Assembly (NCBI GenBank): GCA_963770385.1
Contig: CAVYPJ010000001.1
Span: forward strand, 1,168,750-1,232,749
Direction: 5' to 3'
Length of the DNA stretch: 64,000 nucleotides
Source: an uncultured Alphaproteobacteria bacterium
GTDB taxonomy: Bacteria; Pseudomonadota; Alphaproteobacteria; Rhizobiales; Xanthobacteraceae
In this document: piece after piece, positions 19,522-22,789 of the stretch
Layout of the letters: each line of letters starts with the position of its first letter
How positions within the stretch are numbered: position 1 is the first letter of the stretch
The notes under the pieces: generated by a model
The model's database searches: none
Told to the model about the DNA's origin: nothing
The model's input: only the letters and a program-made list of their open reading frames with translations
Translations under genes and position numbers: made by a program

Positions 19522-20607
19522 TCAGGCCGATCGCTCCTGCAGCCTGCGACCAAGAATGTCCCGTCTCGCAGTGACCGCGTCGGCCAACAGTTGCAGCGTT
19601 CTTGCGGTGGTGTCCCAATCGATGCAGCCGTCCGTGATGCTCTGGCCATAAGCCAGGGGGGTGCCTGATAGCACGTCCTGCCGGCCCGCGACGAGGTTGC
19701 TCTCGATCATCACGCCCATGATACGCGCGTCGCCGTCGGAAAGTTGGCGCGCAATATCGGCCGCAACCGCAGGCTGGTTCTCCGGCTTCTTGCCGCTGTT
19801 GGCGTGGCTGGTGTCGATCATGATTCGCGGGGCGACGCCGTTGCGCGCGAGTTCCGTGGCGGCGGCTTCGACGCTGGCAGCGTCGTAGTTCGGCTTGGCG
19901 CCCCCGCGCAGGATGATGTGACAGTCCTCATTGCCCGAGGTCGCCGCGATCGCCGAGCGCCCGCCCTTGGTGACCGCCATGAAATGATGGGGATGGGAGG
20001 CCGACTTCACTGCGTCGGCAGCGATGCGGACATTGCCGTCGGTGCCGTTCTTGAATCCGACCGGGCAGGAGAGGCCCGAGGCGAGTTCGCGATGAATCTG
20101 GCTCTCGGTCGTGCGCGCGCCGATCGCCGCCCAGGCAACCAGATCGGCAATGTATTGCGGCGTTGTCAGGTCGAGGAATTCCGCGCCGGCCGGCAGGCCG
20201 ACATTGTTCACCGCCAACAGCACGTTGCGCGCAAGTCGCAGCCCCTTGTTGATGTTGAAGCTGCCGTCGAGATCGGGATCGTTGATCAACCCTTTCCAGC
20301 CGACGATCGTGCGCGGCTTCTCGAAATAGACGCGCATGACGATTTCGAGCCGGTCGGCCAATTGCTCGCGCAGGGTCGCGAGACGTTGAGCATAATCCAC
20401 CGCGGCCTCGGGATCATGGACCGAGCAGGGGCCGACAATGACAAGAAGGCGGTCATCGGTCCCGTGCAGGATGGCATGTATGGCGTTCCGCGCGGCCATC
20501 ACGACACGCGTCGCAGTGAGGCTGCGCGGGACCTCGCGCATCACCTCGTCGGGCGTACTCAGTTCTTTCAGCTCCGTTATTCGTAGATCGTCAGTGGTGC
20601 TCAACAC
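19522..20607 (-). CDS. aroG: Class I 3-deoxy-7-phosphoheptulonate (DAHP) synthase, AroF/G/H type
   Basis: VGPCSVHD, RVYFEKPRT..GWKG, IGARTTESQ, PVGFKNGT, MIDTSHANS, SITDGC; paralogue assignment within aroF/G/H is uncertain. Confidence 0.93.
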   Translation of the reverse strand: MLSTTDDLRITELKELSTPDEVMREVPRSLTATRVVMAARNAIHAILHGTDDRLLVIVGPCSVHDPEAAVDYAQRLATLREQLADRLEIVMRVYFEKPRTIVGWKGLINDPDLDGSFNINKGLRLARNVLLAVNNVGLPAGAEFLDLTTPQYIADLVAWAAIGARTTESQIHRELASGLSCPVGFKNGTDGNVRIAADAVKSASHPHHFMAVTKGGRSAIAATSGNEDCHIILRGGAKPNYDAASVEAAATELARNGVAPRIMIDTSHANSGKKPENQPAVAADIARQLSDGDARIMGVMIESNLVAGRQDVLSGTPLAYGQSITDGCIDWDTTARTLQLLADAVTARRDILGRRLQERSA

Positions 20608-20645
20608 GGCGGGCTCCTGAGGGTTGTTGAGGACCTGCCGGCAAT

Positions 20646-20670
20646 AAAAAAGCCGCCAGGTCTGGCGGCT
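20646..20670 (-). terminator. Attenuator terminator upstream of the DAHP synthase gene
   Basis: Minus strand AGCCGCCAG-AC-CTGGCGGCT followed by a T run. Confidence 0.85.
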
Positions 20671-20694
20671 CTTCGGATGTCTTGCTGCAATTCT

Positions 20695-20775
20695 TCAGAT
20701 TGAGCGCGATCCTCCTGCCGCCAGCGAGCTGTCGTAGCTAAAGTACCAAAAATAGCTGGTGGCGACGGTGATCAT
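20695..20775 (-). CDS. Leader peptide MITVATSYFWYFSYDSSLAAGGSRSI (aromatic amino acid attenuator)
   Basis: Y-F-W-Y-F-S-Y cluster; the downstream CTGGCGGC is complementary to the 5' arm of the terminator. Confidence 0.8.
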   Translation of the reverse strand: MITVATSYFWYFSYDSSLAAGGSRSI

Positions 20776-20843
20776 GGGCGCTGTATAGCGCAGGCTCTTC
20801 GGTTTGTCATCCCCAAATCGGCCTCGCATGCAATCCAGAGGGA

Positions 20844-21428
20844 TCAAGCATTGCGCGCGGCCAGCGCCATGCCGATCAGCGTCGCGCCGCCGAACAGCAG
20901 GTTGATGCCGACGAGCAGGCCGATCGCCCAGAGCGCGGAGCCCGGCAAGCCCGAAATGATGATCCCGGCAATCGCGATGTCCATGAGACCGGCGACCAGG
21001 AGCCACGACCAGCGGCCCGTCAATTCGCGGCGATGCTCCAGTGCGTACATCACGGTGGCGACGCCTTCGGCGAGGAAATAGACCCCGACCACGATGGTCA
21101 GCGTCAGCGTGCCCTGGACCGGTTGGACCAACAGGATGATGCCTGCCCCGATCGCCAGCACCGCCGACAACAGCGACCACCAAAAGCCCGGCATGCCACG
21201 CGCCCAGAACGTCAGCGCTAACCCCGCGATGCCGCTGATCAGAAACATCCAGCCAAGAAAGATCGTGACCGCAAGGCTTGCGAGCGGCGGCACGATCATT
21301 GCGGCCAGGCCCAGGATCGCAAGCAAGATGCCCTCGATCAGGAACGCCTTCCAATGCGCACGCACCGTGGCGCCCACTTCGGATTGCAATTTGCTGATGT
21401 TCGGATCGGTGTCTTGGGGAAGGGTCAT
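20844..21428 (-). CDS. HdeD/DUF308 family membrane protein
   Basis: Repeated TM pairs, FLGWMFLISG, LLVGINLLFGG. Confidence 0.85.
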   Translation of the reverse strand: MTLPQDTDPNISKLQSEVGATVRAHWKAFLIEGILLAILGLAAMIVPPLASLAVTIFLGWMFLISGIAGLALTFWARGMPGFWWSLLSAVLAIGAGIILLVQPVQGTLTLTIVVGVYFLAEGVATVMYALEHRRELTGRWSWLLVAGLMDIAIAGIIISGLPGSALWAIGLLVGINLLFGGATLIGMALAARNA

Positions 21429-21479: not shown

Positions 21480-22526
21480 CTATCCGTGCCCTGCCGCCGA
21501 CGAAAAGCCTTCGCCCGCAGTTCGCATCCGGTTGCGGCCAAAGAAATAAACCCCTGTTGTGACAAGAAGAAGCGCGCAGCCGAGCAGGATCGCGATCAAG
21601 CCGATGGGAACGAGCACCCGTGCCACATGGCGGTCGGGATTGAGCAGCCAGTTATGGATCGAGGTCAACACGAAGGCGAGCCCGATGAAGCCGGCGCCGC
21701 CACCCGCGACCACGAGCGCCCACATCCGTCTGAGCTGGCTCAGCCGTTCACGGGCGAGATCGGTGCGAGGGGCATGGTGACGGGCGACCCGATGCACCAG
21801 TCGCGCAGCAAAGGCGATAGAGGCGAAGCCGATCACGACGCTGCTCGCGCCGAGCCACAGGCGGGTCGATGGGTCGAGATCCCCGCCACGCTGCAGCATC
21901 AGCAGCGGGAAATCGAAGCCGGCGTGCAGGCCGACAGGTCCCATCAGGATCAGGATCCGAGTCGAGATACGCGCCCAATCGCGGTTATGCCGGTTGGCGC
22001 CAAGCGCGGTGCTTGACCGGGCGATGGCGAGATAGGCGCCCGCGATGACGCCGAGTGCGCCGTGGAACGGCACGGTCAGGACGCTGCGCAGCGCAGCCAG
22101 CGCGCGCCACATATCACTGTGCTGTTCGAGATAGGCAAGGTTCTCGTAGGCGGCGAAGCCGAGCCCCACGGCCGCGCCATAGACCACCGTGTCCATGGGA
22201 TCGCCGAGCGGGCGGCGCGCCGCCGACAACGCCGACACCGCGATGATCGCGAGGACCTTGACCGTCTCCTCCGGCAGCGCGATCCCAAAAACCGCGTGCA
22301 CCAACTGCTCGAGCCAGGGATTCCCGGGCATGGCGAGCAGGCGATTGAATGGCGCGCGGACCAAGCCCAACAGCGAAATGCTGGCGGCGCCCAGCAGGAA
22401 AGCTGTCCAGACCTTGACGGGCGGACCGGATCGGTCGCCGGCCGCGACCACCAGCCACAAAATGAGCAAAGCGGGCGCGATCGCCGCGGTTCCGATCACC
22501 GTCGGGAGGGATGCAAGCAGGTTCAT
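21480..22526 (-). CDS. PrsW family intramembrane glutamic protease
   Basis: LPEETVK, GLGFAAYEN, PFHG and GLHAGFD motifs. Confidence 0.88.
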   Translation of the reverse strand: MNLLASLPTVIGTAAIAPALLILWLVVAAGDRSGPPVKVWTAFLLGAASISLLGLVRAPFNRLLAMPGNPWLEQLVHAVFGIALPEETVKVLAIIAVSALSAARRPLGDPMDTVVYGAAVGLGFAAYENLAYLEQHSDMWRALAALRSVLTVPFHGALGVIAGAYLAIARSSTALGANRHNRDWARISTRILILMGPVGLHAGFDFPLLMLQRGGDLDPSTRLWLGASSVVIGFASIAFAARLVHRVARHHAPRTDLARERLSQLRRMWALVVAGGGAGFIGLAFVLTSIHNWLLNPDRHVARVLVPIGLIAILLGCALLLVTTGVYFFGRNRMRTAGEGFSSAAGHG

Positions 22527-22789
22527 CGCAAGGGCAGATATGCCAGTTCCCAAGTTTTTCTACTGTAGCGTGGCGGATGCACATGCAAGAAACGCGACGC
22601 ACGAATGGCGACGCGTCGCCGCACGCGATGCACCAAAATCGCGTTGCCTGGGCGAGATGCCAAAACGGGAATCACCATCGCGCTTCTTGGTTCATTGAGA
22701 ACCTGCGCGCAACGCATTCCGCCTTTGTCGTCATGGAAAAATCGCCGCGCATCCATCGGGCCGTAGCTCGAGGGCCGCGCTTTTACGGA

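What the first reader, a model, noticed from the sequence alone, without database searches (positions are those of the whole stretch)
20607..20775. Leader-peptide attenuator sensing Tyr, Phe and Trp together, upstream of DAHP synthase
Seen in sequence: a 26-codon ORF with Y-F-W-Y-F-S-Y, then CTGGCGGC inside the leader (20717-20724). That octamer is exactly complementary to the 5' arm (GCCGCCAG) of a terminator with a T run (20646-20670). Established: this is classical ribosome-mediated attenuation, where stalling at the control codons frees the antiterminator strand. One leader integrating all three aromatic end products at the first shikimate-pathway step is notable, and the ORF is too short for routine annotation.
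Basis: partly seen in the sequence, partly recalled or inferred. Interest (0 to 1): 0.75.

Follow-up and report, generated by a model that had tools for sequence, protein, structure and literature searches.

The report
Aromatic leader-peptide attenuator before DAHP synthase
A tiny unannotated gene packed with Tyr, Phe and Trp codons, followed by a switchable transcription stop signal, sits in front of one of this Bradyrhizobium's two first-step enzymes of aromatic amino-acid synthesis. It is a real, widely conserved but uncatalogued example of the textbook "attenuator" switch.

Summary
On the minus strand there is a 26-codon ORF (20775-20695, MITVATSYFWYFSYDSSLAAGGSRSI), the octamer CTGGCGGC (20724-20717), and a terminator AGCCGCCA-GACC-TGGCGGCT plus T6 (20670-20646). 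A class I DAHP synthase gene follows (GTG 20607).

It is not chance. Among 80,663 short ATG-ORFs in this genome, it is the only one with 6 or more aromatic residues in 7 that is followed by a terminator.

The same unit precedes class I DAHP synthase in several settings:
- 18 of 25 sampled same-genus genomes
- Rhodopseudomonas, Mesorhizobium, Bauldia and Kaistia
- other alphaproteobacterial orders
- other classes of the phylum

The antiterminator pairing (segment 2 with segment 3) is kept by three independent compensatory changes. Indels in the ORF are in frame. Phe codons are 81% TTT, against 16% in this genome's genes. The promoter geometry predicts a leaderless leader mRNA.

No Rfam or NCBIfam family matches it, and I found no paper describing it. 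The closest known analogue is aroR-aroF of Corynebacterium glutamicum.

Verdict: a classical ribosome-mediated attenuator and a new member of a known kind. Joint sensing of Tyr, Phe and Trp is inferred, not shown. A conserved fifth segment after the T-run remains unexplained.

The parts
20805..20810 (-). Predicted -35 hexamer ATGACA (family consensus GTGACA)
   Evidence: Read. A GAC[AG]-containing -35 hexamer lies 17 nt from the -10 in 40 of the 41 distinct upstream regions where both hexamers were found. Inferred promoter; no TSS data.
20782..20787 (-). Predicted -10 hexamer TATACA (inside CTATAC, family consensus CTATAT)
   Evidence: Its end lies 6 nt before the A of the leader ATG here, and 6-7 nt before it in 35 of 42 distinct leaders. 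This predicts a leaderless leader mRNA. No Shine-Dalgarno sequence precedes the ATG.
20695..20775 (-). Leader ORF, 26 codons plus TGA: MITVATSYFWYFSYDSSLAAGGSRSI
   Evidence: It is conserved in frame in 18 same-genus genomes and, diverged, in other families, orders and classes.
20754..20769 (-). Segment 1 (anti-antiterminator strand) ACCGTCGCCACCAGCT, leader nt 7-22
   Evidence: It pairs with segment 2 in the minimum-energy fold. Duplex energy is -17.4 kcal/mol, and the whole 1:2 hairpin is -24.6 kcal/mol. Within the genus, GUC GCC ACC / GGC GGC AGG changes to AUC ACC GCC / GGC GGU GGG and pairing is kept.
20734..20754 (-). Control codons 8-14: TAT TTT TGG TAC TTT AGC TAC (Y F W Y F S Y), in the loop of the 1:2 hairpin
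   Evidence: Every one of the 44 leaders from the window's order has at least 1 Phe, 2 Tyr and 1 Trp codon. Phe codons are 81% TTT, against 16% in this genome's genes.
20716..20724 (-). Segment 2, CTGGCGGCA, leader nt 52-60. Pairs either with segment 1 or with segment 3.
   Evidence: In 44 leaders its position is fixed, starting about 23 nt after the Trp codon and ending about 20 nt before the stop.
20663..20670 (-). Segment 3, AGCCGCCA. It is the 5' arm of the terminator and the partner of segment 2 in the antiterminator.
   Evidence: There are compensatory changes with segment 2 in three lineages.
20646..20658 (-). Segment 4, TGGCGGCT (3' arm of the terminator), with the T6 run (20651-20646)
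   Evidence: hairpin -19.1 kcal/mol. The terminator helix is 100% paired in 14 diverged leaders, with a G-C to A-U change in one lineage.
20635..20642 (-). Segment 5, GCCGGCAG. It lies just after the T-run and is complementary to segment 4. Function unexplained.
   Evidence: It is conserved 0-6 nt after the T-run with lineage-specific compensation. Median duplex energy is -15.4 kcal/mol, and only 393 of 12,900 shuffles do as well.
20614..20618 (-). Shine-Dalgarno AGGAG of the DAHP synthase gene
   Evidence: With the terminator formed, it is predicted to pair with the region around segment 5. Statistical support for that pairing is weak.
19522..20607 (-). Class I-alpha (AroF/G/H-type) DAHP synthase, 361 aa, GTG start; the regulated gene
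   Evidence: TIGR00034 524 bits (cut-off 173), NF009395 518 bits. It is the only class I copy in the genome. A class II DAHP synthase without a leader lies elsewhere.

Best explanation
This is a ribosome-mediated leader-peptide transcription attenuator that controls the class I DAHP synthase gene.

**Proposed mechanism**
- A sigma-70-type promoter (-35 ATGACA, 17 nt, -10 TATACA) starts transcription at or within a base or two of the leader AUG, so the leader ORF is translated as a leaderless mRNA.
- When charged Tyr-, Phe- and Trp-tRNAs are plentiful, the ribosome runs through codons 8-14 to the stop codon. Segment 1 (nt 7-22) and segment 2 (nt 52-60) then pair behind it. Segment 3 has no partner until segment 4 is made, the 3:4 hairpin plus U-run forms, and transcription ends about 40 nt before the DAHP synthase start.
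- When any of the three charged tRNAs is scarce, the ribosome stalls on Y8, F9, W10 (or Y11, F12) and covers segment 1. Segment 2 stays free and pairs with segment 3 as soon as segment 3 emerges. The terminator cannot form, and RNA polymerase reads into the gene.
- The result is an OR gate. Shortage of any aromatic end product raises synthesis of one of the two enzymes at the entry to the shikimate pathway.

**Shown by sequence and comparison:** the ORF, the four segments, their mutual exclusivity, conservation, and compensatory changes.

**Inferred:** the transcription start, the stalling, the kinetic order of folding, and which amino acids actually matter.
For: Anatomy in the window. The gene is a DAHP synthase.

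**Uniqueness.** It is the only short ORF in the 7.9-Mb genome with 6 or more aromatic residues in 7 plus a terminator.

**Conservation.**
- 18 of 25 same-genus genomes hold it, and the peptide varies only Y/F/N at the aromatic positions.
- Covariance models find diverged versions in 7 of 62 genera of the family and in further families of the order. They also find it in other orders of the class and other classes of the phylum.
- Every hit upstream of a DAHP synthase is followed by a protein with the same N-terminal (T)DD(L/V)RI motif.
- Named carriers are Bradyrhizobium, Rhodopseudomonas, Mesorhizobium, Bauldia and Kaistia.
- The unit travels with aroG, not with the upstream gene. The HdeD-like neighbour is present in 2 of 30 upstream regions.

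**Translation.**
- An ATG sits at a fixed 6-7 nt from the -10 element.
- Length differences in the aromatic run are in frame (23, 24 and 25 aa in Mesorhizobium).
- A 1-nt insertion after the run in one genome changes the peptide tail but not the run.
- Rare TTT makes up 81% of Phe codons, against 16% in genes.

**Antiterminator.**
- The segment 2 position is fixed.
- The GGCGG:CCGCC core is 100% paired in 81 distinct sequences.
- Overall, 84.6% of cells are paired, against 16-59% when partners are slid. Four pairs show double changes, and the covariation score exceeds 500 of 500 shuffles.
- There are three independent compensations: CTGGCAG/CTGCCAG, CAGCGG/CCGCTAG and CCGGCGG/CCGCCGG. In the first two, segment 4 stays G, so the terminator keeps a G.U pair.

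**Ribosome-mask folding.** With the A site on the first aromatic codon or on Trp, and segment 4 not yet made, P(2:3) is 0.6-0.87 for a stall on the Trp codon in 40 of 44 leaders and for a stall on the first aromatic codon in 41 of 44. In the window it is 0.87 for Y8, F9, W10 and Y11, 0.85 for F12 and 0.59 for Y14.

**Precedents.** aroR (Phe-Tyr-Phe) precedes aroF, one of two DAHP synthases in C. glutamicum (PMC4046766; PMC11802643). trpL of S. meliloti is leaderless (PMC10117765).
Against: So the transcription start, the terminated roughly 130-nt RNA and any response to amino acids are all unobserved.

Equilibrium folding does not cleanly separate the states:
- With a ribosome parked on the stop codon, or with none, and segment 4 absent, P(2:3) varies from 0 to 0.87 among leaders. 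The means are 0.43 and 0.51, and in the window the stop state gives 0.86.
- Unlike E. coli trpL, the stop codon lies about 20 nt downstream of segment 2, so the terminating ribosome does not mask it.
- The 'off' state therefore depends on 1:2 forming first and persisting, which is a kinetic assumption.
- With segment 4 present, the terminator is the equilibrium structure even under a stall mask. This is usual for attenuators.

Other weaknesses:
- The 1:2 pairing is weak (-5 to -9 kcal/mol) in some lineages.
- There is only one Trp codon. Some leaders in other orders have none. In C. glutamicum Tyr supply had no effect despite a Tyr codon.
- Covariation rests on few independent events, because the helices are highly conserved.
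Confidence: 0.85

Rival explanations
1. The promoter, ORF and terminator make a small stand-alone RNA or small-protein gene. Its product acts in trans, as the terminated trp leader rnTrpL and its peptide peTrpL do in Sinorhizobium. Control of DAHP synthase in cis is secondary or absent.
For: The unit is a complete transcription unit: promoter, AUG, stop and terminator. S. meliloti rnTrpL/peTrpL show that an attenuator product can act in trans (PMC6614838 and PMC7298713, listed; PMC10117765). Nucleotides 61-81 (GGAGGATCGCGCTCAATCTGA) are more conserved than the four-segment model requires.
Against: In every lineage examined that carries the Phe/Tyr/Trp leader, across several classes, the unit lies 33-72 nt upstream of a class I DAHP synthase in the same orientation. 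It occurs once per genome. That linkage is what a cis element predicts. The peptide tail is not conserved between lineages, and a frameshift after the aromatic run is tolerated. A trans role would add to the cis role, not replace it.
Confidence: 0.07
2. The ORF senses aromatic amino acids through ribosome stalling, but the output that matters is translation of DAHP synthase rather than transcription termination. It would act through the chain of alternative helices 2:3, 3:4, 4:5 and 5:SD, so the T-run hairpin would serve mainly as a structural element.
For: Segment 5, complementary to segment 4, is conserved right after the T-run with lineage-specific compensation. In the window and its near relatives, segment 5 is predicted to pair with the SD/start region when 3:4 is formed and with segment 4 when segment 3 is sequestered. 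SD accessibility rises from 0.26 to 0.58 in the window, the mean rises from 0.40 to 0.53, and it goes up in 31 of 43 sequences.
Against: The pairing of segment 5 with the translation-initiation region is no better than shuffled controls overall (4,977 of 12,900 shuffles as good). It is absent in some lineages (g74, f57). A GC-rich 8-12-bp hairpin followed directly by 6-8 U is a canonical intrinsic terminator, and that feature is invariant in all leaders.
Confidence: 0.06
3. The hairpin is simply the terminator of the upstream HdeD-like gene, and the aromatic ORF is a chance reading frame in the intergenic region.
For: The hairpin lies 174 nt downstream of the stop of the co-oriented upstream gene (20844). 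The simple scanner reported no other terminator between them.
Against: The HdeD-like gene is upstream in only 2 of 30 related loci, while the leader and terminator stay with aroG. A conserved promoter lies between the upstream gene and the ORF. The ORF, its frame and its aromatic run are conserved across classes. The combination is unique in the genome.
Confidence: 0.01

Closest known systems
aroR-aroF leader-peptide attenuator of Corynebacterium glutamicum (Mentz et al. 2013, PMC4046766; Neshat et al. 2014 as summarised in PMC11802643)
   Same: A short leader ORF with aromatic codons (Phe-Tyr-Phe) and a terminator precedes a DAHP synthase that is one of two in the genome. Read-through rises when the ribosome stalls. 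The regulatory idea and the target enzyme are the same.
   Different: It belongs to a different phylum, and I neither saw nor tested any sequence relationship. aroR has no Trp codon and responded to Phe only. The present leader has 3 Tyr, 2 Phe and 1 Trp codon, a conserved GGCGG/CCGCC helix set, and an extra segment 5.
Enterobacterial pheL-pheA and trpL-trpEDCBA attenuators (Rfam Phe_leader RF01859, Trp_leader RF00513)
   Same: Four-segment logic (1:2, 2:3, 3:4), control codons next to segment 1, and an intrinsic terminator before a biosynthetic gene.
   Different: It does not reach the Rfam threshold: Phe_leader scores 26 bits against 55, and only over the terminator. The control codons are a mix of three amino acids. 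The stop codon lies about 20 nt after segment 2 rather than before it, so the terminating ribosome does not mask segment 2. The leader is predicted to be leaderless. The target is the common-pathway enzyme, not a branch enzyme.
trpL / rnTrpL attenuator upstream of trpE(G) in Sinorhizobium meliloti and other Rhizobiales
   Same: Same bacterial order, a leaderless leader ORF starting at the AUG, and a ribosome-dependent terminator/antiterminator switch.
   Different: Its leader is a 14-aa peptide with consecutive Trp codons. It controls anthranilate synthase, and it has known trans functions of both the RNA and the peptide. None of that is known here.
Multi-amino-acid leaders (thrL with Thr and Ile; ilvL and ivbL with Leu, Val and Ile) of E. 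coli (from my own knowledge)
   Same: One leader integrates several end products through mixed control codons.
   Different: These serve different pathways and have far more control codons per amino acid. Here there is only a single Trp codon.

Membership tests
Ribosome-mediated leader-peptide transcription attenuators (mechanistic class) | A short translatable ORF upstream of the regulated gene, enriched in codons for the pathway's end product(s) | tested here: met
   The 26-codon ORF has 6 aromatic codons among 7 consecutive positions. That is unique among 80,663 short ORFs of the genome when combined with a terminator. It is conserved in frame across lineages.
Ribosome-mediated leader-peptide transcription attenuators (mechanistic class) | An intrinsic terminator (GC-rich hairpin plus U-run) between the leader ORF and the structural gene | tested here: met
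   An 8-12-bp hairpin of -19.1 kcal/mol plus T6 lies 38 nt before the GTG. It is present in all leaders and 100% paired in alignment A3.
Ribosome-mediated leader-peptide transcription attenuators (mechanistic class) | An antiterminator helix mutually exclusive with the terminator, supported by covariation | tested here: met
   Segment 2 (20724-20716) pairs with the terminator 5' arm at -14.9 kcal/mol; 2 of 500 shuffles do as well. Across sequences, 84.6% of cells are paired against 16-59% in slid controls, and three independent compensatory changes occur.
Ribosome-mediated leader-peptide transcription attenuators (mechanistic class) | An upstream segment (1) that sequesters segment 2 and is covered by a ribosome stalled at the control codons | tested here: inconclusive
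   It is clear in the window: the 1:2 hairpin is -24.6 kcal/mol, and segment 1 (nt 7-22) lies within the footprint of a ribosome on codons 8-10. It holds in most lineages (-12 to -20 kcal/mol) but is weak in some (-5 to -9). Equilibrium folding of the unstalled state is ambiguous.
Ribosome-mediated leader-peptide transcription attenuators (mechanistic class) | The regulated gene belongs to the biosynthesis of the amino acid(s) encoded by the control codons | tested here: met
   DAHP synthase is the first step of the common aromatic pathway, and the linkage is kept in all lineages examined.
Ribosome-mediated leader-peptide transcription attenuators (mechanistic class) | Read-through depends on leader translation and on the supply of the cognate charged tRNAs; terminated leader transcripts exist | not testable with these tools
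   This needs reporter fusions, Term-seq or Ribo-seq.
Rfam Phe_leader (RF01859) or any other Rfam leader family | A covariance-model score at or above the family's gathering threshold | tested here: not met
   The best hit is Phe_leader at 26 bits against 55, covering only the terminator. No leader family matched in 17 diverged relatives.
Curated protein families for leader peptides (NCBIfam) | A match of the leader peptide to a curated model | tested here: not met
   Six leader peptides gave no family at E up to 10. Public records call the peptide 'hypothetical protein' or do not call it at all.
Leaderless attenuator leaders of Rhizobiales (S. meliloti trpL type) | Transcription starts at the A of the leader AUG, with no 5' UTR and no SD | tested here: inconclusive
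   The -10 hexamer ends 6-7 nt before the ATG in 35 of 42 distinct leaders, the -35/-10 spacer is 17 nt in 40 of 41, and there is no SD. No TSS data were available. The B. japonicum dRNA-seq supplements gave nothing usable.

The most novel reading that the evidence does not exclude
The element may be a five-segment relay rather than a four-segment switch. The conserved segment 5 (GCCGGCAG, 20642-20635) pairs with segment 4 only when segment 3 is held by segment 2. Otherwise it helps occlude the ribosome-binding site of DAHP synthase. One stalled ribosome would then gate both transcription read-through and translation of the same mRNA.

In parallel, the amino-acid specificity of the family may be tuned lineage by lineage through the codon mix. 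Trp is always present in the window's order and absent in some other orders.
Probability: 0.2. Interest if true: 0.6.

Novelty: new member of a known kind. Interest (0 to 1): 0.45.

Why it matters
How alphaproteobacteria regulate entry into the shikimate pathway at the gene level is poorly described. The TyrR and TrpR regulons reconstructed by comparative genomics are in gammaproteobacteria (PMC5343134).

This element offers a concrete, testable answer for Bradyrhizobium, Rhodopseudomonas, Mesorhizobium and many other Proteobacteria. One of two DAHP synthase isoenzymes would be switched on when the ribosome reports a shortage of Tyr, Phe or Trp.

It is a ready candidate for a new Rfam family and for annotating a small gene that pipelines miss. 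It could also serve as a compact aromatic-amino-acid biosensor in rhizobial or other proteobacterial chassis. The mechanism itself is textbook, so the gain is in coverage and annotation rather than in principle.

Tried and rejected
- **Rfam.** A scan at a permissive E-value found only sub-threshold hits to the terminator part: Phe_leader, RNAI and BjrC1505. A gathering-threshold scan of 17 relatives found none.
- **Terminator scanner.** The simple scanner did not list the hairpin. I judge this a scanner artefact (not checked), because ViennaRNA and direct reading show the hairpin clearly.
- **B. japonicum dRNA-seq paper.** Its supplements (PMC4842269) held no usable entry for the DAHP synthase gene.
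- **Vitreschak et al. 2004.** The paper is not held in the library.
- **Equilibrium folding as a test of the 'off' state.** This was uninformative, because 2:3 and 1:2 are nearly isoenergetic when segment 4 is absent.
- **First scripts.** My first hairpin-detection script was faulty and was replaced. The first leader-ORF search assumed the wrong locus orientation and was corrected.
- **SD sequestration by segment 5.** It is not better than shuffles overall and is kept only as a speculative reading.
- **A leader before the class II DAHP synthase of the same genome.** None was seen.
- **Weak covariance-model hits.** Hits L037-L040, L079 and L082-L084 were plain terminators or coding sequence and were discarded.
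Full report
**1. What is in the sequence**

Everything lies on the minus strand. From 5' to 3' the region contains the following.
- **Upstream gene.** A co-oriented HdeD-like membrane protein gene ends at 20844.
- **Promoter-like pair.** ATGACA at 20810-20805, then 17 nt, then TATACA at 20787-20782.
- **Leader ORF.** Six bases after the -10 element, an ATG (20775) opens a 26-codon ORF, MITVATSYFWYFSYDSSLAAGGSRSI, with its stop at 20697-20695. No Shine-Dalgarno sequence precedes this ATG.
- **Control codons.** Codons 8-14 are TAT TTT TGG TAC TTT AGC TAC.
- **Terminator.** AGCCGCCA / GACC / TGGCGGCT followed by TTTTTT occupies 20670-20646.
- **Regulated gene.** Thirty-eight bases further on, after AGGAG, a GTG (20607) opens a 361-aa protein. 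It matches the AroF/G/H DAHP synthase model TIGR00034 at 524 bits against a cut-off of 173.
- **The octamer.** CTGGCGGC at 20724-20717, inside the ORF, is the exact complement of GCCGCCAG in the terminator's 5' arm.

**2. Is it more than chance?**

- The 166-nt leader folds better than 199 of 200 dinucleotide shuffles (z = -2.5). Its minimum-energy structure has a long hairpin joining nt 7-22 to nt 51-61, with the aromatic codons in the loop, plus the terminator.
- The duplex between the terminator 5' arm and the ORF (-14.9 kcal/mol) is matched by 2 of 500 shuffled ORFs.
- I scanned the whole 7.9-Mb genome in six frames. Of 80,663 ATG-ORFs of 12-45 aa, three loci have 6 or more aromatic residues in a window of 7. 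Only this one is followed by a GC-rich hairpin plus T-run.

**3. Conservation**

- **Genus.** A DNA search found the leader in 18 of 25 same-genus genomes, once per genome. The peptide differs only by Y/F/N exchanges in the aromatic run and a few flanking residues.
- **Family and order.** A covariance model built from these found diverged versions in 7 of 62 genera of the family. A second model found full-length matches in further families of the order.
- **Class and phylum.** The second model also found matches in other orders of the class and in other classes of the phylum.
- **Example peptides.** MIHLTASYWYFYFSSSLAAGGFRAI, MTFASAPTFYWYFGFRRPLAEVGVRSI, MINSASRYYFWFYGFQSPWQRKGCV, MNHAAATYYFWFSYPQPQAEAGVRSI, MINTATFFWYFSYPLPAEAIARV, MSAKFYFYFFWHLKPLADREG and MSFARAYFFFYFSYSSPTAVKSGKRS.
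- **Linkage.** In every case the unit is followed, 33-72 nt after the T-run, by a gene whose product begins with the same ...(T)DD(L/V)RI... motif as the window's DAHP synthase.
- **Names.** A pattern scan of named genomes showed that the window's genus is Bradyrhizobium. Carriers include Rhodopseudomonas, Mesorhizobium, Bauldia, Kaistia and many uncultured Alphaproteobacteria.
- **Upstream neighbour.** The HdeD-like gene is present in only 2 of 30 related loci, so the unit belongs to aroG.

**4. Evidence that the ORF is read by ribosomes**

- The ATG keeps a fixed distance from the -10 element: 6-7 nt in 35 of 42 distinct leaders. The -35/-10 spacer is 17 nt in 40 of 41. That is the geometry of a leaderless mRNA starting at the A of AUG.
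- The trp leader of Sinorhizobium meliloti, from the same order, is experimentally leaderless (PMC10117765). B. japonicum has 320 mapped leaderless mRNAs (PMC4842269).
- Length variation within the aromatic run is in frame. Mesorhizobium peptides are 23, 24 and 25 aa.
- In one genome a single-base insertion after the run changes the peptide tail and the stop that is used, while the run itself is untouched. So the run and the RNA are under selection, not the C-terminal peptide.
- All 44 leaders from the window's order have at least 1 Phe, 2 Tyr and 1 Trp codon.
- Phe is encoded by TTT in 81% of cases, against 16% in 1,568 long genes of this genome. A rare codon is what one expects where stalling should be sensitive. 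A nucleotide-level constraint cannot be excluded.

**5. The alternative helices**

I call nt 7-22 segment 1, nt 52-60 segment 2, the terminator arms segments 3 and 4, and GCCGGCAG after the T-run segment 5.

- **Fixed position.** In 44 leaders the best partner of segment 3 within the ORF always lies at the same place. It starts about 23 nt after the Trp codon and ends about 20 nt before the stop.
- **Pairing across 81 distinct sequences.** The GGCGG:CCGCC core of 2:3 is paired in every sequence. The 8-bp helix is paired in 84.6% of cells, against 16-59% when partners are slid. Four pairs show double changes, and the covariation score exceeds all 500 shuffles.
- **Three independent compensations**:
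  - CTGGCGG/CCGCCAG becomes CTGGCAG/CTGCCAG in two genera.
  - It becomes CAGCGG/CCGCTAG in another genus.
  - It becomes CCGGCGG/CCGCCGG within a further genus.
- **A telling detail.** In the first two cases segment 4 keeps its G. The terminator therefore tolerates a G.U pair while the antiterminator gets a full A-U pair. This fits selection acting on 2:3 itself.
- **Terminator helix.** It is 100% paired, with one G-C to A-U change.
- **The 1:2 helix.** It is strong in the window (-24.6 kcal/mol as a hairpin) and shows a within-genus compensation. It is weak in some lineages.

**6. How it most likely works**

I masked the RNA covered by a ribosome, from 15 nt upstream to 12 nt downstream of the first base of the A-site codon. 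I then folded the transcript as it exists before segment 4 is made.

- **Stalled ribosome.** With the A site on the first aromatic codon or on Trp, the probability that segment 3 pairs with segment 2 is 0.6-0.87 for a stall on the Trp codon in 40 of 44 leaders and for a stall on the first aromatic codon in 41 of 44. The few exceptions fall to between 0.04 and 0.56. In the window it is 0.87 for Y8, F9, W10 and Y11, 0.85 for F12 and 0.59 for Y14. The first three control codons are thus one each of Tyr, Phe and Trp, all in the effective position.
- **No ribosome.** The window's leader forms 1:2 and leaves segment 3 for the terminator.
- **Weak point.** The stop codon lies about 20 nt after segment 2. 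A ribosome waiting at the stop does not mask segment 2, and equilibrium folding of that state is ambiguous (0.86 in the window, mean 0.43). Termination under plenty must therefore rely on 1:2 forming first, about 45 nt before segment 3 is transcribed. That is inference.
- **Full-length RNA.** The terminator wins at equilibrium even under a stall mask. As in classical attenuators, the decision is kinetic.

**7. What it controls**

- The genome has one class I DAHP synthase, which is this gene. It also has one class II enzyme at another locus, whose upstream region shows no leader or terminator.
- The leader therefore tunes one of two isoenzymes. [quoted passage not shown]
- In that organism Phe but not Tyr supply affected read-through (PMC11802643). 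That is a warning against assuming every codon type is sensed.
- Some leaders in other alphaproteobacterial orders lack Trp altogether, with runs such as FYRFYGY, YYYFSY and YFTFF. Every leader in the window's order keeps one TGG. This looks like lineage-specific tuning of the inputs.

**8. Comparison with what is known**

- *Mechanism.* It is a member of the leader-peptide attenuator class.
- *Catalogued families.* It is not a member of any:
  - The best Rfam hit is Phe_leader at 26 bits against a threshold of 55, and only over the terminator.
  - Seventeen diverged relatives match no leader family.
  - Six leader peptides match nothing in NCBIfam.
  - Public records call the peptide 'hypothetical protein' or omit it.
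- *Literature.* Seven full-text searches found no description of an aromatic leader before DAHP synthase in Proteobacteria. These included papers on proteobacterial aromatic regulons, premature terminators and the Bradyrhizobium primary transcriptome. The key 2004 comparative paper on proteobacterial attenuators is not in the library, so prior mention there cannot be excluded.
- *Earlier notes of this scan.* These are unchecked AI notes. They report the same kind of element before DAHP synthase in other proteobacteria, cyanobacteria and other groups. My phylum-level search agrees with the note that the family reaches beyond Alphaproteobacteria.

**9. An unexplained extra: segment 5**

- In nearly all lineages a stretch complementary to segment 4 lies 0-6 nt after the T-run. 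It carries lineage-specific compensation: CTGG/CCAG, GAGG/CCTC, TTGG/CTGA and CCGG/CCGG.
- The median duplex energy is -15.4 kcal/mol, and 393 of 12,900 shuffles do as well.
- Because it lies beyond the termination point, it cannot influence termination.
- I tested whether it alternates between segment 4 and the ribosome-binding site of aroG.
  - Predicted SD accessibility rises from 0.26 to 0.58 in the window when segment 3 is sequestered. The mean rises from 0.40 to 0.53.
  - The pairing of segment 5 with the initiation region is no better than shuffles overall.
- I leave this as a speculative second layer of control.

**10. Verdict**

This is a real, strongly conserved, classical ribosome-mediated attenuator of a class I DAHP synthase. 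It is uncatalogued and, as far as I could find, undescribed for Proteobacteria, but its mechanism and its regulatory idea are both already known. Joint sensing of Tyr, Phe and Trp is plausible and testable, but it is not shown.

Noticed in passing
window 20635-20642 (minus strand): Segment 5 (GCCGGCAG) lies directly after the attenuator's T-run and is complementary to the terminator 3' arm. It is conserved across lineages with compensatory changes. Its function is unknown, and a possible link to occlusion of the aroG ribosome-binding site was tested with inconclusive results.
   Followed up: partly
L073, L077, L078 (genomes G358, G538, G586; family f45), about 300-420 in each locus: A related-looking leader, MIKTAATFVYFYYVTSIPAAA (Phe/Tyr only, no Trp), has its own terminator. 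It precedes a gene whose product has the N-terminal part and the HVGH motif of tyrosyl-tRNA synthetase, so it is a candidate Tyr/Phe attenuator of tyrS. One genome (G538) has a second copy 3.2 kb away, before a different gene (L076).
   Followed up: partly
L080, L081 (genomes G400, G566; family f51): Leader ORFs MIIFAAHNSGWWWQTQ and MLIFAANNSGWWWQTR with terminators were picked up weakly by the model. They are presumably local trp-type (WWW) attenuators. I did not look at the downstream gene.
   Followed up: no
L209, L212, L213, L215 (other orders of the class): In some alphaproteobacterial orders, leaders before class I DAHP synthase have no Trp codon (runs FYRFYGY, YYYFSY, YFTFF, YFAYYFTF). 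All 44 leaders of the window's order keep one TGG. The set of amino acids sensed may differ by lineage.
   Followed up: partly
own genome, contig C1:461381-462694 (outside the window): A second DAHP synthase, of class II (PF01474, 717 bits), lies here. There is no recognisable leader ORF or terminator in the 500 nt upstream.
   Followed up: partly
L025-L027 (Rhodopseudomonas) compared with L043, L048 (Mesorhizobium-type, f28g89): The leaders of Rhodopseudomonas (MIHLTASYWYFYFSSSLAAGGFRAI) and Mesorhizobium-type genomes (MIHLTASFWYFSYGSSLAAGGLRSI) are far more alike than their family-level distance suggests. This hints at horizontal transfer of the leader-aroG unit.
   Followed up: no
L207:2811-3017: A cobalamin riboswitch (RF00174, 119 bits) lies about 1.2 kb downstream of the aroG leader in one relative. 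It is unrelated to the finding.
   Followed up: no
window 20844-21428 and 21480-22553 (minus strand): The upstream neighbours are an HdeD-family membrane protein (63 bits, below cut-off) and a PrsW-like intramembrane protease (60 bits, below cut-off). Neither is linked to the leader in relatives.
   Followed up: partly
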